The notes below the pieces were generated by a model. That model was given only the letters and a program-made list of their open reading frames with translations. It ran no database searches and was not told the origin of the DNA. Position numbers and translations under genes: made by a program. Shown piece after piece: positions 18,764 through 31,865 of a stretch of DNA of 37,196 nucleotides. Within the stretch, counting starts at the first letter, position 1; the number at the start of each line of letters is the position of its first letter. This stretch comes from an uncultured archaeon (GTDB taxonomy: Archaea > Asgardarchaeota > Lokiarchaeia > Sigyniarchaeales > SOKP01), in NCBI GenBank assembly GCA_964632315.1, contig CAZWEM010000012.1:61842-99037 (forward strand), written 5' to 3'.

Positions 18764-21010
18764 ATGAAAGTCAGAATGATTAAATATTCAAAACCCTACC
18801 TCATAATGATTGCTGTTTCTATTGCGTTGTTATTTGGACAAGCAAACTTTAACCTCACATTGCCTGATTATCTCGCAAAGATAGTGAATGTAGGCATTCA
18901 ACAAAAGGGTATAGAGAATGCAGTGCCTGAAGCAATGCGAGGAATCGAAATGAACCATACTTTGCTATTTCTTACTCCAGGGAACCAAACAGACGTGCTT
19001 GATGCTTATACATTCGTGGAAAACGGAACTACAGAAGCTAATAATTATGTCAAAAAATATCCTGCTGTGGTTAACCAGTCTATTTATGTATTGACCGATA
19101 CTGATAGCAAGACAATCGCGCATTTAAACCCGATTATAGCCAAGGGACTCTTGACAGTATCCTTCGTCGAATTACTCATGGCAAATGACACATTACGTAT
19201 GCTTGTAAATCTTCAATTACAACCATTAAACATTTCTCTTCCTAGTGGAGATTTATTTAATTACTTTCAAACATCACCTGAAGGGCCTATTGCAGTGACA
19301 TTGATAACTGCTCTTGCTAACTCACGATTTAGCGCTCTTGGGGAAGCCTTTATAATACAGGCCGCAATTCAAGTTGTAAGAGTGGAGTATGAAAAACTTG
19401 GTATAAATGTAGATCAAATGCAACTTAATTATATGTTCTACTACGGTGGTTTGATGCTCCTTCTTACCTTCCTTGCAATGGCATGTACAATTGGAGTGGG
19501 GTATTTCGCTGCTAAAATTGCTACCGGAATGTCTCGAGATATGCGAAAGGATATATTTGAGAAGGTCGAAAAATTCTCAAGTACCGAATTTGATACATTT
19601 TCCACCGCATCTTTGATAACGCGGTCAACGAATGATATAACTCAGATCCAAATGGCAATAATGATGGTGATTCGTTTAGTGTTTTATGCTCCTATTTTGG
19701 GGGTTGGGGGGGTAATACACGCCCTTGAGTTAGCTCCCTCGATGTGGTGGATATTAACAATGGCGGTCGGAGTATTACTCGCCCTTATCCTTATAGTCTT
19801 TTATATAGCGTTACCGAAGTTTAAGAGCATTCAAAGATTAGTAGATCGTCTTAATCTCGTGGCTCGAGAGAGTTTGTCGGGTTTAATGGTTGTAAGGGCT
19901 TTTAATAAACAAAAATTCGAAGAGAAACGGTTTGATGAGGCTAATATTGATCTTACTAAGGTTTCGCTGTTTATAAACCGAGTCATGGTGATTATGATGC
20001 CAGTGATGATGATGTTAATGAACGCCCTGATAGTTATCATCATATGGGTTGGATCACACGGTGTAGCCAATGCAAGTATCCAAGTGGGTGATATGATTGC
20101 TTTCATGCAGTATGCTATCCAGGTGACGTTTGCGTTCCTCATGCTTTCGTTAATGTTTATCATCTTACCTCGAGCTTTAGTGTCTGTAAATCGTATTGCA
20201 GAGGTTTTAAAAGTTGATGTAATGATCCAAGATCCCCAAAATCCAAGACACTTTGATGACCCATTTAAGGGTAAAATTGAGTTTCGAGATGTTTCTTTCC
20301 GTTATGCTGGAGCACCAGAGAATGCATTGAATGATATTTCCTTTACCGCTCAAGCAGGACAGTTCACTGCTCTTATTGGGCCGACTGGGTCTGGTAAGTC
20401 TACGCTTGTAAATTTGATTCCTCGTCTATATGAGGTGACATCAGGGGCAATATTGATCGATGGCGTCGATGTACGTGAAGTAACTCAAGAAAACCTTCAT
20501 GAAAAAATTGGATACGTGCCTCAAACAAGCGTGTTGTTTTCCGGAACTATTGAAAGTAATCTCTTGTTTGCAGATGAAAATGTGAATGAAGAAGTTCTTC
20601 AATCATCAATAGAAACCGCTCAAGCTAGTGAGTTCGTAAGTTCTAAACCCGAGGGCATGACTACTGAGATAGCTCAAGGTGGTAAGAATGTATCTGGAGG
20701 TCAAAAGCAGCGCCTTTCAATTGCTCGGGCATTAGTTAAAAAGGCTCCCATTAATATTTTAGACGATAGTTTTTCTAATTTAGATTTTAAGACCGATATT
20801 GCATTAAGAAAAGCACTTCGAAAATCTATATCAGCAAGTACAGTAATAATTGTGACACAAAGGGTTTCCACGATAAAAGATGCTGATCAGATCATTGTTC
20901 TGAATGAGGGTAAGATTGTTGGAAAGGGTAAGCATACTGAACTCATGGAAGATTGTGCTATATATAGAGATATAGCCATTTCACAACTTGAATTGGAGGA
21001 ATCATCATGA
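18764..21010 (+). CDS. Heterodimeric ABC exporter, TMD+NBD subunit with degenerate site and large extracellular loop
   Basis: GPTGSGKST and VSGGQ motifs. Walker B is ILDDS (E->D) and the switch is TQR (H->Q), the TM287-like pattern. Confidence 0.93.
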   Translation: MKVRMIKYSKPYLIMIAVSIALLFGQANFNLTLPDYLAKIVNVGIQQKGIENAVPEAMRGIEMNHTLLFLTPGNQTDVLDAYTFVENGTTEANNYVKKYPAVVNQSIYVLTDTDSKTIAHLNPIIAKGLLTVSFVELLMANDTLRMLVNLQLQPLNISLPSGDLFNYFQTSPEGPIAVTLITALANSRFSALGEAFIIQAAIQVVRVEYEKLGINVDQMQLNYMFYYGGLMLLLTFLAMACTIGVGYFAAKIATGMSRDMRKDIFEKVEKFSSTEFDTFSTASLITRSTNDITQIQMAIMMVIRLVFYAPILGVGGVIHALELAPSMWWILTMAVGVLLALILIVFYIALPKFKSIQRLVDRLNLVARESLSGLMVVRAFNKQKFEEKRFDEANIDLTKVSLFINRVMVIMMPVMMMLMNALIVIIIWVGSHGVANASIQVGDMIAFMQYAIQVTFAFLMLSLMFIILPRALVSVNRIAEVLKVDVMIQDPQNPRHFDDPFKGKIEFRDVSFRYAGAPENALNDISFTAQAGQFTALIGPTGSGKSTLVNLIPRLYEVTSGAILIDGVDVREVTQENLHEKIGYVPQTSVLFSGTIESNLLFADENVNEEVLQSSIETAQASEFVSSKPEGMTTEIAQGGKNVSGGQKQRLSIARALVKKAPINILDDSFSNLDFKTDIALRKALRKSISASTVIIVTQRVSTIKDADQIIVLNEGKIVGKGKHTELMEDCAIYRDIAISQLELEESS

Positions 21011-25301: not shown

Positions 25302-25973
25302 ATGTCATACAAAGAACCATATACAGAGCAGTTAAGGATTAATTTTCTTAAGTATACCGGAAAAGCGTTTCAATTCCTGCCAGAAATGAAAAATCCAAAA
25401 ATTCTTGATTTAGGTTGTGGTTCTGGTCTAATTAGTCTTGAACTTGCAAAATTAACAGATGGAATTATCCATGCTATAGACATTGATCCAATTCTCTTAG
25501 ATAAGTTGAATGAAAAAGTCGAAATAAGAAATCTTTCACAAAAATTTAGAATTCAAAGGATTGATTTCTTAAAAAATAATTTCCCTAATGATTATTTTGA
25601 CCTGATATGGGAAGAAGGTGTGGTACATATAATAGGATTTAAGAAAAGCTTCAAGGAATGCAACCGGATCCTTAAACAAGGGGGATTTTTAGTTCTTGGT
25701 CAATCGATCAAATTGATGGAGAAAAATGAAGCACTAATAACCGAATGTGGTTATGAATTGATCAAACAATTAAACTGGCCTAAGGGATGTTGGTGGAATG
25801 AGTTCTATGGCCCTTTAGAGATAATAATTAAAGAAATACATGAAGGTAAGAAACCTAATCTTTTTGAAGATATTAACAAAATCGAAGAAGAGATTAGATG
25901 GGTCAAAGCCAATCCTAATGATAGTGATTGTGCGCATTACATTTTAAGAAAAAAAATAGAAGGAGGTGAATGA
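25302..25973 (+). CDS. Class I SAM-dependent methyltransferase
   Basis: ILDLGCGSG, AIDID, FDLIWEEG and LKQGG motifs. Confidence 0.92.
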   Translation: MSYKEPYTEQLRINFLKYTGKAFQFLPEMKNPKILDLGCGSGLISLELAKLTDGIIHAIDIDPILLDKLNEKVEIRNLSQKFRIQRIDFLKNNFPNDYFDLIWEEGVVHIIGFKKSFKECNRILKQGGFLVLGQSIKLMEKNEALITECGYELIKQLNWPKGCWWNEFYGPLEIIIKEIHEGKKPNLFEDINKIEEEIRWVKANPNDSDCAHYILRKKIEGGE

Positions 25974-28480
25974 GATTGGATGAAATAAAAGTAATTGGAG
26001 CAAGAATACATAACCTTAAAAATGTAAATGTAAACATTCCAAAGAGAAAGATGGTTCTTATTACAGGAGTTTCAGGATCCGGAAAATCAAGCTTAGCTTT
26101 TGATATCATATTTGATGAAGGGATGAATCGATATCTTCAATCAATTGGATTTCCTCCAAAATTCGAAGATGAGAAACCATTCGATAGGATTGAGGGACTA
26201 AGTCCTACAGTTGCTGTGGAACAAAGGACCACGAGGGTTTTTAATCCGCGTTCTACAGTTGGGACGAAGACTGCGTTATATAATCTTTTACGGATGTTAT
26301 ATTCAACAGAAGGTGAGTTCCTTTGTCCAATTTGTAAGATCCCTGTTAATGATAATTTGGAATGTGATACTTGCGGAATGGTTATAGATCGCCCCCAAAT
26401 TAAACATTTCTCTTTCAATGAGCCCAGTGGAATTCATTTTTGAGCTTATCAGATGACCAAATTGTGTCTCAATTGTAAGGGGAGGGGTTTTACATCCCAT
26501 CTAACTGAAGAACTTATCATACAGGATGAAAATTGGAATTTAGTAGAGATTACTAAAGCGGGATCAGCTGTTTTTGCTGATCAATTGCGATTTGTAGAAC
26601 AACTACCTAAGTTCTATGATTTTGACGGCAATACTCCGTATAAAGATCTATCTGATGAAATAAAGAAAGTATTTCTATATGGAAGTGGGAAAAAACTACC
26701 TTTTGAGTGGGATTCGAAAACATTTACAGGGACATTAGAACGAGAATTTGAAGGTATTATTCCTCACGTGGATCGCGCACTTAAAGAATCAAAAAGCTCA
26801 TATAGACGAAATAAAGCAAAGAATTTTATGGCTATTATGAAATGCGATGAATGCGATGGGTATCGCATAAATGAGCAAGCACGGGAAATTAAGATCAATG
26901 GAAAGCATATAGGAGAAATAGCAATGATACCTGTCGATGAGTTAAACAAATTTCTCTCAGAATTAACTGAGAATCACGTTAAGACACCTCAAGGTAAATC
27001 TATTATTGAAACGATAATCAAAGGTATTCAGAACATGATAGATGTAGGTTTATCTTATATTCATCTTAATCGAACTTTACCATCACTTAGTGGAGGGGAA
27101 TTACAACGTCTTTCTTTGATGACGCATTTGGATGCTGGTATTGATTCATTGATTTATGTGTTAGATGAACCAAGTATGAGTTTACATGAAAGAGAAAAAG
27201 ATTCTCTTATTAAAATTATAAAAAGATTAAAGGAATTGGGAAATTCAATAATAGTGGTTGAACATGATAGGCGTTTTATAGAAATTGCTGACATAATTAT
27301 CGATATCGGTCCAGACGCTGGAAAAAATGGAGGTAAAATTGTGTATAAAGGAGATCTTGAAGGATTAAAGGGTGTCAATGAGTCTTTTACAGGATTATTC
27401 TTGCGAGGCTTGATTAAACTTCCTCAAAAAATAAAAATGAATCGGGTTGATAAAACGACCAAATTCATAACCCTAAAAAACGCCACAACAAATAATTTAA
27501 AGGATATTACTGTTAATATTCCTTTAGAAATGATGGTTGGAATTGCCGGTGTTTCTGGATCGGGGAAGAGTTCACTAATTTTAGACACCCTTGTGCCACT
27601 ATTGAAGAAAATTTTTTCTGAGAACTCAGATTATGAAAATGAAGATGATATTGATGAGAATGGAGATGACGTATCTGAATATTATGCAAAAATTGAAGGA
27701 GCACAAAATATTGACGAAGTTATAGTAGTCAATCAAAAACCTATATCTAGAGTAAAAACATCTACGCCATGTTCTTATGTTGGGATATGGGATAAAATTC
27801 GAAAGGTATATGCAAAAACAGGTGATGCAAAAAAAATGAAATATAGTGCGGGGCATTTCTCTTATAATTCTGAAAAAGGAAGATGTCCTACATGCAGGGG
27901 AACCGGAGAACAAGACTTACAAATATCTTTTCTCAGCAGTTTTAACATTCCTTGTAAAGAATGTCATGGCACTCGATATAAACAAGAAATTTTAGATGTA
28001 TTTTACAAAGGTAAGAACATCGCTGATGTACTTAATATGACTGTTATTGAAGCATTAGAACATTTCAAATCCTATCCTAATATAACAAAAATACTACAAA
28101 TCCTTGATGACATTGGAATGGGATATATTACTCTAGGACAGCCTGCACCAACCTTAAGTGGTGGAGAAGCTCAAAGAGTAAAGTTAGCTAAAGAATTAGG
28201 CAAGACACGAAAAAAAAGTTCGCTCTATGTTCTTGACGAACCAACGGTTGGACTTTCTTTTTATGATGCCGTAAAACTCATGGAATTACTTCAAAAGATC
28301 GTGAATGAGGGCAATAGTGTAATTATAATTGAACATGATCCCGAAATCCTCTCGTATACTGATTATATTATTGAGCTTGGACCAGAAGGAGGCCCAAAAG
28401 GAGGAAAAGTGATCGCATTCGGAACACCTAAAGAAATTCGGGAAAATACTAATTCAAATACAAGTCCATACTTAAAATGA
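25970..28480 (+). CDS. uvrA: UvrA-family ABC ATPase (short class II/DrrC-like), interrupted by a 30-nt in-frame insertion containing TGA
   Basis: GARIHNLKNV, 2x GVSGSGKSSL, LSGGELQR/LSGGEAQR, LDEP and zinc fingers. ORFs 25970..26443 and 26453..28480 are in the same frame, separated by one TGA. Joined length is 826 aa. Confidence 0.88.
26433..26462 (+). other. Candidate 30-nt bulge-helix (BHB/BHL-like) mRNA intron in uvrA
   Basis: The insert forms a hairpin with a 3-nt bulge AAU next to a GUGG/CCAA helix. Excision gives FSFNEPSG-M-CLNCKGRG. Confidence 0.5.
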
Positions 28481-28487
28481 AAGATGT

Positions 28488-31400
28488 TTAATCTACAGCT
28501 TCAGGGATTAAAACTACAAAAGAATCTCCTTCTACCCAAATTTTACCGTTATAATTATCTAAGATTCTTTCGACGAGAAGAAAACCAAGGAGAATTTCCT
28601 TAATCTTACTATCTTTTTCTCTCTCCATTCGCAGGATATCTTTTTTTCCAATATCAGAAATCGCATTTCGATAATCTACAAATTCAATTTTTATAAAACT
28701 TTTATCATCTTGTAGATTCCTAAAGATAACAATCTTTAATTCAATTGATTGATCTTTGTTATATCGAATTGAACTGAAAAGCAAATTCGTGAAAATATCT
28801 GTTAAAAATTCATCTGCCATCACATAAAATTCTTCACTGGGAGCCTCAATTATAATATTAATCTTCTTATTTGTGTACATTGAAATTATATACTTTACGG
28901 CATTATCAATTTCTTTGTTTAAATTCACTTTTTTCATTGAGAGCGTTTTTTCATTAATGGATGTCAGCTTTTGGATCACTGATAAAAGCTGTTGCCCGTT
29001 TACATTTTGTTGTTTAATATTATTTAGTAATTCCTCTCCAATTTCTGACCTAAAAAAAGCAGTTTCATCCGCTAATTGATTTAGATAGGTCTGTAAATTA
29101 TTCATTATGATTTTAAAATCATTTACAAATAATTCTCTGTAAAAATATTCTCTATCAAATTCTCTATGAAATTCTTCTTCACTCTTTTGAAGTTCATATT
29201 TTGCAATTTCTCGAAATATACCATTCTTAAGAATTTCTGAAAAAAATCCTATCAATTCTAAATCTTCTATTTCCTTAGAAGAGAAATCTGAAAAATTTAC
29301 AAGAATTATGATTCCTTCCAAGTTATTCTCAATTTTTATTGCATAGACAATACAATTCCATATCTTTAATTTCTCAAGAAATTTCTTGAAATTGATACCA
29401 TCATTGGGGATTACTCCAATCTCAGTTAAGGTAAGATAATCTTTACTTTTTAACGTTTCTTTTAACCATGGAAAATTAGATATAGATATTGTCTCTGGTT
29501 CAATAATCTCAGGATTTAATATTTGAGCATGCCAAATAATTCCACTTTCCATAAAGCTAAAATCTTCATTTAGGTAATAAAAGTATGCTCTCCTTGCCTT
29601 GGTATAATCTCCAATATCTTTAAGAGAATCATATATCGCTTGATTAAAATCTTTCATTCCTACAAATCGAGAAATTATTCGAGCAATAATATTTTCTAAT
29701 TTTAAGACCTTCTTAAGCTCTTTTTCTGATCTTTTTTGTTCCGAAATATCATAACAAATTACTTGATAGTATGTTTCTTTACCAATTCTCACAAATGAAT
29801 TTTGTAAAGTAATCCAGGTAACTGTTTTATCCTTTCTATAAATTTGAACATCTATCGGAGGAAAATTCATATCTCTTGTTTCCTCCTTGAATCTTTTAAG
29901 GAATTCTACTAAAAAATCTTCGTGTATAATCGGTAAATTAATGAATTTCTTACCAATCAATTCTTCTCTACTATAACCAAAAATTTTTTCTAAAGCAGGG
30001 TTACAATCAACGACATAACCTTTAGGATCCAATAATAGAATACAAAATGGTGATTCCTCGAAAAGATGTCGATATTTTATTTCTGAATCCATTAATTTAA
30101 GTTCCGTTTCAATCCGCTCACTAACATCTCGAATAATGCATTGCACTAACATTTGATTGCCCATCTTCACTTCATTTACGTTAACTTCCACTGGGATGAT
30201 ATTTCCAGAGTGGCTAATTACATTTAACATGATAGGAGTCGGTTTATCGATATGCTCAAAGATTTTTTCCTTGAAATTTTTTCTGATATCGTCAATTAAT
30301 AACTGACTCGCGTGAAGTCCAACAAAATCCTCAAAAGGAAGCTCGAACAAATCTTCTGCTTTTTTATTTGCATCTATTATTATACCAGATTTTCGATCAA
30401 TAATTAAAATTGTATCTTGAGCTGCTTTAAATAATGTACTATAACGTAATTCAGCAAGTTTAAGTGCTTCAATAGAAGGTTTATATAATCCAATTTGAGT
30501 TATAATCGTTTGTTGGATATTTCGTAAATGTTCTAATATATCTTCATCATTTAGATAAGCCTCTTTAATAATTTCAAACTGCTCAAAAATAAAAATATTA
30601 AATTGATTAATAATTACTTTCGGAATATTTTGATTATAATATACGATTAAAGAAATAGGCAATAAACCCCCTCTAATCGATTCATCTGGCACATAATCAA
30701 AATAAATAGCAGCATTAGAATTTAGATGCGGAAAGGGAAGGATAATTGAAGCTCTTTCAAATTGACCGCCACTAAATATTACTTGCGACATTGCGAAACT
30801 TTTAACTGAAACTAATTCAGGATCTTCAAAAGCATCTTTAGGATGAACATTTTCTATTTTGACGCCTAAATTTTCATCCCATCTACAAAAAATTATTCCA
30901 ATGTCACTACTCGGGGTAACTCTATCTAATTTTTCTGCTATTTTTAAGGAGAGCCAATTAAAACTTTCATCTACATTCTTGTTTTTTATTCCACTTGTCA
31001 AGAAACATTTAATGGGTCGTTTTCCAAGCCGATTTATGCCCATAGCTTCAACTAAATCATCAAGATTAGGTTCACCTAAATCTACTTTATTGAACATAAT
31101 TAGAAGAGGTAATTCACTTAGTTCTGGTTTTCCTGCTATCTCGTGTAATAATGCTCTAGCATCTGGAAATTTAAGTTTATCATGGATATCCAATACAAAT
31201 ATTAGTCCATCTTGATCCTTCAGATATGGTTTCCATAAGTCCTTAAATTTAGATTGCCCAGGAACATCATAAGTTAAAAGAGATACATTATTGACTAAAA
31301 CCCTTGAAATATCTACACTTATTGTTGGGAATATCGTTTTTGATACAGATTTTCTTCGGCACCTTATTATAGTCGTCTTTCCAGCAAGGAATAAGCCAAA

Positions 31401-31865
31401 AACAAGAATTTTAGCCTCTTTTTGTTCAAAAATAACTTCCTGCTCGGGAAAAGAAGTATAGAATGAATTGATTAATTGAACTATTTCTTCGTATTTCTCT
31501 TTATCTCCTTTATACACTCTCGAATTGGTGTAAAAAGCTTTATAAACATCATCAATTTTCTTAAATTCTTCAACAAATCCGTTTAATAGTTTATTAGCTT
31601 GCTCAGTGTTTAAGTTACTTTTATTATCATACACTATCGAAATCAATAATCGTTCTTTTTTTGTTCTTGAATATGCACTATCAATGTCAAATAATAGATT
31701 TGCTGTTTTAAAGGACCCAAACATATGTTTAAAGAACCCTTTTTCATATAAATCTATCAATGTGGGAATCTGCTTTAGATCATCTCTATCTACTGATTCT
31801 GGAGCTTGTATTACTATTCTCGGTCGAAAAAAGGGTTTTAAATGGCTCAAAACTATAATTATCAA
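28488..31865 (-). CDS. Multidomain signalling protein: longin/uDENN-like, Arf-like small GTPase, longin/uDENN-like, PAS, PAS, GAF, degenerate HisKA/HATPase
   Basis: G1 GLFLAGKTT, G2 PTI, G3 DVPGQ, G4 NKVD and G5 TSG. Two PAS domains (IIDANKKAEDLF...RDVSER; VVDCNPALEKIFGYSREELIGK...DISEQ), a GAF-like region and a HATPase-like tail GKIWVE. Confidence 0.85.
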   Translation of the reverse strand: MIIIVLSHLKPFFRPRIVIQAPESVDRDDLKQIPTLIDLYEKGFFKHMFGSFKTANLLFDIDSAYSRTKKERLLISIVYDNKSNLNTEQANKLLNGFVEEFKKIDDVYKAFYTNSRVYKGDKEKYEEIVQLINSFYTSFPEQEVIFEQKEAKILVFGLFLAGKTTIIRCRRKSVSKTIFPTISVDISRVLVNNVSLLTYDVPGQSKFKDLWKPYLKDQDGLIFVLDIHDKLKFPDARALLHEIAGKPELSELPLLIMFNKVDLGEPNLDDLVEAMGINRLGKRPIKCFLTSGIKNKNVDESFNWLSLKIAEKLDRVTPSSDIGIIFCRWDENLGVKIENVHPKDAFEDPELVSVKSFAMSQVIFSGGQFERASIILPFPHLNSNAAIYFDYVPDESIRGGLLPISLIVYYNQNIPKVIINQFNIFIFEQFEIIKEAYLNDEDILEHLRNIQQTIITQIGLYKPSIEALKLAELRYSTLFKAAQDTILIIDRKSGIIIDANKKAEDLFELPFEDFVGLHASQLLIDDIRKNFKEKIFEHIDKPTPIMLNVISHSGNIIPVEVNVNEVKMGNQMLVQCIIRDVSERIETELKLMDSEIKYRHLFEESPFCILLLDPKGYVVDCNPALEKIFGYSREELIGKKFINLPIIHEDFLVEFLKRFKEETRDMNFPPIDVQIYRKDKTVTWITLQNSFVRIGKETYYQVICYDISEQKRSEKELKKVLKLENIIARIISRFVGMKDFNQAIYDSLKDIGDYTKARRAYFYYLNEDFSFMESGIIWHAQILNPEIIEPETISISNFPWLKETLKSKDYLTLTEIGVIPNDGINFKKFLEKLKIWNCIVYAIKIENNLEGIIILVNFSDFSSKEIEDLELIGFFSEILKNGIFREIAKYELQKSEEEFHREFDREYFYRELFVNDFKIIMNNLQTYLNQLADETAFFRSEIGEELLNNIKQQNVNGQQLLSVIQKLTSINEKTLSMKKVNLNKEIDNAVKYIISMYTNKKINIIIEAPSEEFYVMADEFLTDIFTNLLFSSIRYNKDQSIELKIVIFRNLQDDKSFIKIEFVDYRNAISDIGKKDILRMEREKDSKIKEILLGFLLVERILDNYNGKIWVEGDSFVVLIPEAVD

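What the first reader, a model, noticed from the sequence alone, without database searches (positions are those of the whole stretch)
26416..26475. 30-nt stop-containing insertion in uvrA that looks like an endonuclease-spliced (BHB/BHL) mRNA intron
Seen: the two uvrA ORFs are in one frame. Between FSFNEPSG and CLNCKGRG there are 11 codons including TGA, where the UvrA consensus (FSFNxPxGxCxxCxGxG) has one. The insert folds as a hairpin (UCAU..UUGA 26434-43 / UCAGAUGA 26449-56). It is preceded by a 3-nt bulge AAU (26431-33) and a central helix GUGG/CCAA (3 of 4 pairs), with an in-register exon-exon helix UGAG 26419-22 / CUCA 26468-71 extendable by CAA/UUG. Cutting after the 2nd nt of each bulge, which is the EndA rule, removes 26433-26462 and yields GGA ATG TGT = G-M-C. 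Known: archaeal tRNA-splicing endonuclease removes such introns, and mRNA examples are rare (cbf5 in Crenarchaeota). Inference: a protein-coding intron in an Asgard gene, possibly a splicing switch analogous to HAC1/XBP1. Caveat: the 3' side is relaxed (internal loop), and any 30-nt deletion here restores the frame.
Basis: partly seen in the sequence, partly recalled or inferred. Interest (0 to 1): 0.85.

Follow-up and report, generated by a model that had tools for sequence, protein, structure and literature searches.

The report
tRNA-type mini-intron splits Asgard uvrA
A 30-base hairpin insert with a stop codon interrupts an otherwise healthy DNA-repair gene (a UvrA paralogue) of a Loki-type Asgard archaeon. 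Comparison of 84 related genes shows that it behaves as a real intron that must be cut out of the mRNA, most likely by the tRNA-splicing enzymes. In the papers I could search, this is reported inside a coding sequence for only one archaeal gene (cbf5).

Summary
The uvrA-like gene (25970-28480, +) is interrupted at 26433-26462 by 30 nt carrying TGA. Removing those bases gives GGA-ATG-TGT (G-M-C), and 70 of 74 uninterrupted orthologues read G-M-C there.

The insert is not an assembly error or a pseudogene scar. Homologous 30- or 31-nt inserts sit at the same site in 12 distinct sequences from independent assemblies.
- The 31-nt versions shift the frame, so only exact removal restores the protein.
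- The hairpin and central helix keep pairing through compensatory changes, including an exon serine third position that covaries with an intron base.
- Both exons are under strong purifying selection (dN/dS about 0.07-0.11 at dS 0.7-1.0).
- There is no conserved restart codon.
- Intron-bearing alleles have a much stronger exon-exon helix than intronless ones (-14.0 vs -6.6 kcal/mol).

Relatives fold into a canonical hBHBh' motif. The window's own copy is relaxed (central helix 3 of 4 pairs). The genome encodes two EndA paralogues and RtcB.

I verified two further 30-nt inserts of the same geometry in this genome (an EF-2-like GTPase and TBP). Earlier scan notes list more, so the scan has found this class before on other DNA of this genome.

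No RNA evidence could be obtained. The HAC1/XBP1-like switch idea has no support.

The parts
25970..26432 (+). Exon 1 of the class-II-like uvrA paralogue. It encodes 154 codons plus the first base (A) of the Met codon.
   Evidence: NCBIfam UvrA profile positions 2-141 are matched. dN/dS is 0.01-0.09 within the intron-bearing clade.
26433..26462 (+). A 30-nt intervening sequence, the predicted EndA-type intron. It carries an in-frame TGA at 26441-43.
   Evidence: It is absent from 74 of 80 species-representative orthologues. Homologous 30/31-nt inserts lie at the same site in 12 distinct sequences. It has no other copy in the genome.
26463..28480 (+). Exon 2 of uvrA. It starts with the UG of the Met codon and then UGU (Cys), and includes the stop codon.
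   Evidence: UvrA profile positions 277-923 are matched. dN/dS is 0.10-0.14.
26427..26430 (+). 5' strand of the central helix H (GUGG), exonic. It pairs with 26457-60.
   Evidence: The pair U28-A59 covaries with C-G in relatives (UA in 6 sequences, CG in 5). G27.A60 is a mismatch throughout the window's clade.
26431..26433 (+). 5' three-nucleotide bulge AAU. The predicted cut is after 26432.
   Evidence: The bulge is AAU or AAA in all 12 variants. It is unpaired in the MFE or near-MFE folds.
26434..26456 (+). Intron hairpin h', 23 nt: a lower stem, a 2-nt asymmetry, an upper stem and a 5-nt loop.
   Evidence: 5 of 9 pairs change on both sides across the 12 sequences, and 88% of cells are paired.
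26457..26460 (+). 3' strand of the central helix H (CCAA), intronic.
26461..26467 (+). 3' splice-site loop (AU|UGUGU). The predicted cut is after 26462. It is relaxed (a loop, not a clean 3-nt bulge) in this clade.
   Evidence: Relatives of group B can form a clean AUU bulge followed by GUG pairing with CAU. The window's clade cannot.
26408..26423 (+). 5' strand of the long exon-exon helix h (the FSFNE codons).
   Evidence: fold. Duplex energy is -12.3 kcal/mol here. The mean is -14.0 in 13 intron-bearing alleles and -6.6 in 71 intronless alleles.
26466..26484 (+). 3' strand of the exon-exon helix h (the LNCKGRG codons).

Best explanation
The 30 nt at 26433-26462 are an archaeal endonuclease-type (bulge-helix-bulge family) intron inside the coding sequence of a class-II-like UvrA paralogue.

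Proposed mechanism (inferred, not observed):
- In the pre-mRNA the two exon ends pair over about 15 bp (helix h).
- The last exon bases (G)UGG pair with CCA(A) at the intron's 3' end (helix H).
- The rest of the intron forms a 23-nt hairpin (h').
- This presents the 5' splice site in a 3-nt bulge (AA|U) and the 3' splice site two bases past H (AU|U).
- The splicing endonuclease (two EndA paralogues, presumably an (alpha-beta)2 enzyme of broad specificity) cuts both sites.
- RtcB joins the exons to give ...GGA AUG UGU..., restoring the zinc-module motif FSFNEPSG-M-CLNCKGRG. It probably also circularises the 30-mer.

Unspliced mRNA would terminate at the in-frame UGA after 157 codons.

Shown here: the insert's exact position, its homologues, the compensatory evolution of H and h', the intron-linked exon-exon helix, purifying selection on both exons, and the presence of the enzymes.

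Inferred: the RNA-level excision itself and the identity of the enzymes that perform it.

The element is old in this genus. It has been lost or exchanged repeatedly, with at least 6 changes on the gene tree, apparently together with a short patch of flanking exon.
For: 1. Site and product. 74 of 80 species-representative orthologues are uninterrupted, and 70 of those 74 read FSFNEPSG-M-C. The EndA rule (cut after bulge nucleotide 2) gives exactly GGA|AUG|UGU in all 12 intron variants.
2. Frame. Six variants are 31 nt and shift the frame, so only exact removal yields a UvrA.
3. RNA structure under selection. 77% of cells are paired, against 41% or less when slid. Covariation is 0.258 against 0.137 +/- 0.018 (0 of 500 shuffles). 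5 of 9 hairpin pairs and H pair 21-53 change on both sides (UA in 6 sequences, CG in 5; the exon base is a Ser third position).
4. The gene is alive. dN/dS is 0.07-0.11 at dS 0.66-1.0 within the window's clade, in both exons. All 13 intron-bearing alleles tested were open on both sides of the insert over the roughly 575 codons examined.
5. Exon-exon helix. It is -14.0 +/- 2.7 kcal/mol in 13 intron-bearing alleles and -6.6 +/- 2.1 in 71 intronless ones. All 6 sister comparisons go the same way.
6. Fold. The BHB-compatible fold lies within 0.3-3.8 kcal/mol of the MFE. In most variants H + 3-nt bulge + h' is the MFE itself. Group-B relatives form a canonical hBHBh'.
7. Enzymes. There are two EndA catalytic-domain paralogues and RtcB. 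The literature reports that Asgard EndA is (alpha-beta)2 with the L1 loop that confers relaxed specificity (PMC5829648).
8. Not locus-specific. A 30-nt insert of the same 1+23+4+2 geometry interrupts an EF-2-like GTPase. Intronless orthologues there read DSD|DEEQERGIT, and the insert recurs in a relative with compensatory changes. Another interrupts TBP.
Against: - There is no RNA-level observation.
- The window's own copy is the weakest of the family. H has only 3 of 4 pairs (G.A). No short helix follows the 3' cut, so the 3' site sits in a 7-nt loop (BHL, not BHB).
- The MFE of the 81-nt region is unexceptional against shuffles (z = -0.59).
- An alternative helix, CAGU with AUUG, competes with H.
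- Whether this organism's EndA accepts such a relaxed site in an mRNA is untested.
- The gene is a paralogue (two other intact uvrA genes), so viability does not depend on it.
Confidence: 0.8

Rival explanations
1. Split gene. The insert is never removed. The N-terminal 157 aa and a C-terminal protein restarting at ATG 26453 are made separately and assemble into a two-piece UvrA.
For: In the window an in-frame ATG (26453) lies inside the insert. Both ORFs are under purifying selection, which a two-piece protein would also explain.
Against: - There is no conserved restart. In L140-L148 the insert ends AAC|UG, and gene callers lose 44 residues including the CxxC. The ATG of the window is absent from L138, L139 and L140.
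- The break would fall inside a zinc module.
- A split gene does not explain the compensatory evolution of the hairpin and H.
- It also does not explain the intron-linked exon-exon helix.
Confidence: 0.05
2. Pseudogene. The insert is a 30-nt insertion scar that inactivated a redundant uvrA paralogue.
For: A stop lies in the frame. Two other intact uvrA genes are in the genome. A decayed second copy exists in one relative (G011:C76:1182-1601, 3 TAA).
Against: - dN/dS is 0.07-0.11 over dS up to 1.0 in the intron-bearing clade.
- No further stops or frameshifts were seen in the 13 intron-bearing alleles over the roughly 575 codons examined.
- The insert itself evolves under structural constraint.
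Confidence: 0.03
3. Translational recoding. Ribosomes bypass (hop over) the insert, or read through the stop with a frameshift, without RNA splicing.
For: A stable hairpin follows a GGA codon and an early in-frame stop is present. This loosely recalls the phage T4 gene 60 bypass (recalled from my own knowledge, not tested here).
Against: - There is no matching landing codon.
- The Met codon is split A|UG. In L140-L148 no AUG exists at the 3' boundary in the unspliced RNA.
- Read-through would insert 10 unconserved residues into an invariant G-x-C spacing. In the 31-nt variants it would also need a frameshift.
- The exon-exon helix and helix H have no role in bypassing.
Confidence: 0.03
4. The insert is removed from the RNA, but by something other than EndA/RtcB, or only conditionally (a regulated switch as in HAC1/XBP1).
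For: The 3' site of the window's copy is not a canonical bulge. Most variants have an in-frame stop within the first few insert codons (L131 does not), which would make unspliced mRNA yield a defined truncated product.
Against: - The geometry (4-position helix, 3-nt bulge, cuts 2 nt past the helix on each strand) is that of EndA substrates. It is canonical in relatives.
- It lacks the twin 7-nt hairpin loops of Ire1 substrates.
- Inserts of the same kind lie in TBP and an EF-2-like gene, which argues for constitutive removal.
Confidence: 0.09

Closest known systems
BHB intron in the cbf5 (pseudouridine synthase) pre-mRNA of Crenarchaeota, orders Desulfurococcales and Sulfolobales (Watanabe 2002; Yokobori 2009, PMC2738675)
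   Same: A short intron inside an archaeal coding sequence, often with a relaxed cleavage motif. It is attributed to a hetero-oligomeric, broad-specificity splicing endonuclease. Its distribution is patchy and explained by gain and secondary precise losses.
   Different: The gene (uvrA paralogue) and the phylum (Promethearchaeota/Asgard) are different. Here the length is fixed at 30-31 nt. A roughly 15-bp exon-exon helix is specific to intron-bearing alleles. Presence or absence is tied to a recombined exon patch. Splicing of cbf5 was shown experimentally, and here it is only inferred. As of 2020 cbf5 was described as the only coding-sequence example (PMC7714728).
[quoted passage not shown]
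   Same: The same motif logic applies (h, 3-nt bulge, 4-bp H, bulge, h'; cut after bulge nucleotide 2). The same enzymes are presumed ((alpha-beta)2 EndA with the L1 loop, and RtcB). The size range is the same.
   Different: The host RNA is an mRNA, so helix h must be built from codons. It is built here through synonymous-site choice (Ser UCY vs AGY, GAG, CUC, GGA). The preprint does not mention mRNA introns.
BHB intron in the 5' UTR of Haloferax volcanii HVO_1309 (PMC7714728)
   Same: An EndA substrate within an mRNA. There the excised circle was detected and in vitro cleavage was shown.
   Different: That intron is 46 nt and lies in the untranslated leader, so it does not interrupt the reading frame.
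HAC1/XBP1 unconventional mRNA splicing (Ire1 plus tRNA ligase/RtcB)
   Same: Spliceosome-independent, protein-only cleavage of a small mRNA intron, followed by ligation by a tRNA-type ligase.
   Different: Ire1 cuts in the 7-nt loops of twin hairpins, and splicing is stress-regulated and changes the frame. Here the cuts are in bulges flanking a 4-bp helix. No sign of regulation was found.

Membership tests
Archaeal EndA-type (BHB/BHL) intron | [quoted passage not shown] | tested here: inconclusive
   Relatives G002, G010 and L144 form the full canonical hBHBh' (h CAU/GUG, H CUGG/CUAG, bulges AAA and AUU). The window's clade has H at 3 of 4 pairs (G.A). Its 5' half is canonical (H-B-h'), but its 3' site lies in a 7-nt loop before a distal h. 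That is a relaxed BHL.
Archaeal EndA-type (BHB/BHL) intron | Cuts after the second nucleotide of each bulge give a junction that restores the functional sequence | tested here: met
   In all 12 variants the rule gives GGA|AUG|UGU. 70 of 74 intronless orthologues read G-M-C at this site.
Archaeal EndA-type (BHB/BHL) intron | The structure, not the sequence, is conserved (compensatory substitutions) | tested here: met
   covariation 0.258 vs 0.137 +/- 0.018 (0 of 500 shuffles). 6 pairs change on both sides. 77% of cells are paired vs 41% or less when slid.
Archaeal EndA-type (BHB/BHL) intron | The host encodes the splicing endonuclease and RtcB ligase | tested here: met
   Two PF01974 paralogues (C28 and C8; 103 and 70 bits). 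RtcB is at C26 (568 bits). I did not examine the L1 specificity loop. The broad specificity of Asgard EndA is taken from PMC5829648.
Archaeal EndA-type (BHB/BHL) intron | The intron is excised from the RNA (spliced junction, circular intron) | not testable with these tools
UvrA, class II (lacking the UvrB-binding domain) | Tandem ABC ATPase with zinc modules, without the roughly 135-residue UvrB-binding insertion | tested here: met
   In the NCBIfam UvrA profile, exon 1 covers positions 2-141 and exon 2 covers 277-923, so 142-276 are skipped. An intact orthologue aligns end to end with chain 2VF7 (842 aa) but only from residue 247-265 onward with full-length UvrA chains. That 2VF7 is a class II UvrA is recalled from my own knowledge.
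HAC1/XBP1-type (Ire1) regulated splicing | Cleavage sites in the 7-nt loops of twin hairpins | tested here: not met
   The cuts lie in a 3-nt bulge and in a loop flanking a 4-position helix. There is only one hairpin and it is internal to the intron. Ire1 itself was not searched for.

The most novel reading that the evidence does not exclude
This uvrA intron is one member of a genome-wide population of uniform, roughly 30-nt EndA-spliced introns in protein-coding genes of a Promethearchaeota (Loki-type Asgard) genus. The population includes core genes: TBP and an EF-2-like GTPase, which I verified, and histone, GAPDH, E2, SCP2 and Top6B, which earlier unverified scan notes report. These introns are maintained by exon-exon pairing written into synonymous sites, and they are gained, lost or exchanged among lineages by short recombination patches. 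That would make these archaea the first prokaryotes known to need routine protein-enzyme splicing of many mRNAs.
Probability: 0.6. Interest if true: 0.92.

Novelty: new member of a known kind. Interest (0 to 1): 0.8.

Why it matters
In the papers I could search, an endonuclease-spliced intron inside an archaeal coding sequence is documented for a single gene family, cbf5 in Crenarchaeota. A 2020 study of EndA substrates says so explicitly (PMC7714728).

[quoted passage not shown] The comparative support is unusually clean.
- Natural 'deletion mutants' (74 intronless orthologues) define the exact junction.
- Frameshifting 31-nt versions exclude in-frame read-through.
- There are compensatory changes between an exon codon position and an intron base.
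- The exon-exon helix exists only where the intron exists.

It also shows how coding sequence is co-opted to build a splicing motif. Two further cases that I verified in the same genome suggest that mRNA splicing by the tRNA machinery may be routine in this lineage.

A practical consequence follows. Gene callers split or truncate such genes: public databases hold 632-679-aa 'UvrA' fragments for this clade. Asgard proteomes and pseudogene counts are distorted accordingly.

Tried and rejected
- Spliced junctions in public contigs. Exact-pattern scans of JGI metagenome contigs for the spliced junction of the window's clade and of group B found nothing. This is uninformative, because the collection is mostly DNA.
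- Spliced-form proteins. The large protein collection holds no spliced-form protein at more than 72% identity. All close relatives (73-89%) are the truncated downstream ORF.
- Single-sequence thermodynamics. These are not significant (z = -0.59).
- Mobile repeat or MITE. Rejected, because the intron has no other copy in the 4.4-Mb genome.
- My own genome-wide scan for BHB-like inserts whose removal joins two ORFs. It recovered the uvrA intron but gave 4418 hits with no enrichment at 30 nt. It was too unspecific to count introns.
- Assembly artefact. Rejected, because homologous inserts occur in independent assemblies from NCBI, ENA and JGI.
- Alternative genetic code (TGA as sense). Rejected, because relatives carry TAG or a frameshift instead.
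- A single conserved register for the exon-exon helix. This does not hold across the two groups (helix 1 is only 60% paired). Each group has its own register.
- ARAGORN on the genome. It gave 31 tRNAs, many with introns, some implausibly long. I did not use these further.
Full report
**Observation**

The window carries a uvrA-like gene on the + strand, read as two ORFs in one frame: 25970-26443 (157 aa) and 26453-28480 (675 aa). Between FSFNEPSG and CLNCKGRG there are 11 codons including TGA (26441-43).
- hairpin 26434-43 with 26449-56;
- bulge AAU 26431-33;
- helix GUGG 26427-30 with CCAA 26457-60 (3 of 4 pairs);
- exon-exon pairs UGAG/CUCA and CAA/UUG.

Deleting 26433-26462 gives GGA ATG TGT. 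On its own the 81-nt region does not fold better than shuffles (z = -0.59). The case therefore rests on comparison.

**Organism and gene**

Record titles of the nearest relatives name Promethearchaeota/Promethearchaeia MAGs, that is Asgard of the Loki type. The genome (4.45 Mb, 119 contigs) has two other intact uvrA genes.

This paralogue lacks the UvrB-binding domain. Exon 1 matches UvrA profile positions 2-141 and exon 2 matches 277-923. An intact orthologue aligns end to end with PDB chain 2VF7. It is therefore class-II-like.

**Natural controls**

Among 80 species-representative loci, 74 are uninterrupted. Of those 74, 70 read FSFNEPSG-M-C. An insert at exactly this site occurs in four further representatives (L094, L104, L126, L131). 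It also occurs in metagenome contigs found through the downstream ORF.

In all there are 12 distinct insert sequences, 30 nt (the window's clade, 'group A') or 31 nt ('group B'). In every one the exon ends are ...GGAA and UGUGU....

The 31-nt inserts shift the frame. Read-through cannot make a UvrA there, and only exact removal can.

**RNA structure is under selection**

On the 12-sequence alignment A2, I tested the structure of H (4 pairs) + h' (9 pairs) + one exon-exon register.
- It is 77% paired, against 25-41% when the partners are slid.
- The covariation score is 0.258, against 0.137 +/- 0.018 in shuffles (0 of 500 as high).
- Five of nine hairpin pairs change on both sides.
- H pair 21-53 is U-A in six sequences and C-G in five. 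The exon partner is the third position of the serine codon (AGU, AGC, UCU). A synonymous exon site therefore covaries with an intron base.

The fold with H, a free 3-nt 5' bulge and h' lies within 0.3-3.8 kcal/mol of the MFE in all variants. In most it is the MFE.

**Canonical versus relaxed**

In group B (G002, G010, L144) a textbook hBHBh' can form: h CAU/GUG, bulge AUU, H CUGG/CUAG, bulge AAA, then h'. Both cuts fall after bulge nucleotide 2.

In group A, including the window:
- H has a G.A at its outer position;
- no short helix follows the 3' cut;
- the 3' site therefore lies in a 7-nt loop closed by a distal exon-exon helix, which makes it a relaxed BHL.

The window's copy is thus one of the weakest of the family. 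Even so, group A is a well-supported clade of seven sequences (100% SH-aLRT support) that has kept the element across dS of about 1.

**The exon-exon helix is intron-linked**

I computed the duplex energy between the 19 nt upstream of H and the 24 nt downstream of UGUGU.
- It is -14.0 +/- 2.7 kcal/mol in 13 intron-bearing alleles.
- It is -6.6 +/- 2.1 kcal/mol in 71 intronless ones (Mann-Whitney p = 1.5e-8). Kin are not independent, so this p-value overstates.
- In six comparisons of an intron-bearing allele with its nearest intronless neighbour on the tree, the intron-bearing allele is always stronger: -10 to -19 against -2.5 to -8.9.

The helix is written in synonymous choices: Ser UCY not AGY in FSF, Glu GAG, Gly GGA, Leu CUC or UUG.

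**The gene is functional**

- Within group A, dN/dS is 0.07-0.11 at dS 0.66-1.0. It is low in both exons (0.01-0.09 and 0.10-0.14).
- All 13 intron-bearing alleles tested are open on both sides of the insert over the roughly 575 codons examined.
- There is no conserved restart codon. Several variants end AAC|UG, and gene callers there lose 44 residues including the CxxC.
- The window's ATG 26453 is not conserved.
- Synteny is conserved: a methyltransferase upstream and a 1125-aa Ras/Roc-PAS protein downstream.

These results reject the pseudogene reading and make a two-piece protein unlikely.

**History**

On the protein tree the intron needs at least six changes. Group-B introns sit next to intronless sisters that are 88-92% identical gene-wide.

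Within +/-12 codons of the site the pattern reverses:
- intron-bearing alleles of different clades are 84-92% identical there, against 69-84% gene-wide;
- they are only 76-79% identical there to three of their intronless sisters, which are 88-92% identical gene-wide.

The serine codon family switches between UCU and AGU across these pairs. This fits exchange or loss of the intron together with a short recombined patch. Selection on the flanks could contribute as well.

The intron has no other copy in the genome, so it is not a repeat element.

**Machinery**

Two EndA catalytic-domain paralogues and one RtcB are present. The literature reports that Asgard EndA is (alpha-beta)2 with the L1 loop associated with relaxed-motif cleavage (PMC5829648). 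A 2026 preprint finds two EndA paralogues in most Asgard genomes and very intron-rich tRNA genes, but does not mention mRNA introns.

**Not locus-specific**

Earlier notes of this scan list similar inserts in other genes of this genome. I tested two of them.
- An EF-2-like GTPase on contig 25 has a 30-nt insert with TAA, H UCAG/CUGA, bulge AUU and a 23-nt hairpin. Intronless orthologues in the genus read DSD|DEEQERGIT exactly as predicted. One relative (G046) has the same insert with changes in the hairpin. Two more (G015, G016) show the shortened frame.
- The TBP gene on contig 18 has a 30-nt insert whose removal restores QNI-V-ASGDL. Its geometry is the same 1+23+4+2, and its H also has an outer mismatch.

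This supports a class of roughly 30-nt mRNA introns in this organism. It argues for constitutive rather than switch-like splicing.

**What is missing**

No RNA-level observation was possible. Pattern scans for the spliced junction in JGI contigs found nothing. No spliced-form protein of this clade is in the large protein collection. The enzymatic step is inferred from geometry and gene content.

**Comparison and verdict**

The closest known case is the cbf5 pre-mRNA intron of Crenarchaeota. It shares the relaxed motif, the hetero-oligomeric endonuclease, and a history of gain and secondary loss (PMC2738675). As of 2020 it was described as the only coding-sequence example (PMC7714728).

The present element is a new member of that kind, in a new gene and a new phylum.

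I put 0.8 on 'EndA/RtcB-spliced mRNA intron'. About 0.09 goes to removal by another route or conditional removal. About 0.1 in total goes to split gene, recoding or pseudogene.

Noticed in passing
G000:C25:28609-29514 (-), loci L153/L165: An EF-2-like GTPase gene carries a 30-nt insert with TAA just before EEQERGIT. Its geometry matches the uvrA intron (H UCAG/CUGA, bulge AUU, 23-nt hairpin). Intronless orthologues read DSDDEEQERGIT. The insert recurs in G046 (L177), and G015 and G016 show shortened frames.
   Followed up: yes
G000:C18, about 19075-19104 (+), loci L161/L162: The TBP gene is split between its two repeats by a 30-nt insert with TAA. Removal restores QNI-V-ASGDL. H is ACAU/AUGG (3 of 4 pairs), the bulge is AGA, and the hairpin has a 9-bp stem with loop AUAUC.
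   Followed up: partly
window 26393-26467 and the orthologous flanks in L094, L104, L126, L144: Within +/-12 codons of the intron site, intron-bearing alleles from different clades are more alike (84-92%) than they are gene-wide (69-84%). They are less like three of their intronless sisters there (76-79% vs 88-92% gene-wide), with a Ser UCU to AGU codon-family switch. This looks like a short recombination patch that travels with intron presence or absence.
   Followed up: partly
G011:C76:1182-1601 (locus L055): A second, decayed copy of the uvrA paralogue's N-terminal part (68% identity, 3 TAA stops) lies about 5 kb upstream of the intron-bearing copy in that relative. It is a true pseudogene, for contrast.
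   Followed up: no
L104 (DATKTW010000076.1): The record is titled 'Candidatus Nanopelagicaceae bacterium'. It nevertheless carries the Promethearchaeota-type uvrA paralogue with the intron, and the genome search placed it in the same genus (G011). The label or the binning is probably wrong.
   Followed up: no
G000 contigs C74, C80, C87, C90, C103-C113: These small contigs are strongly GC-rich, unlike the AT-rich bulk of the genome. They are likely the source of the reported 8.6% contamination.
   Followed up: no
window 28488-31865 (-): A 1125-aa ORF lies next to uvrA. In the syntenic relatives it is annotated with Arf/Ras/Roc small-GTPase and multiple PAS domains, a typical Asgard 'eukaryote-like' signalling protein.
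   Followed up: no
Public protein collections (P0003-P0007, P0041, P0044, P0048, P0103, P0115): Gene callers record this clade's UvrA as 598-679-aa fragments plus a separate 155-157-aa ORF. The intron therefore causes systematic mis-annotation in databases.
   Followed up: partly
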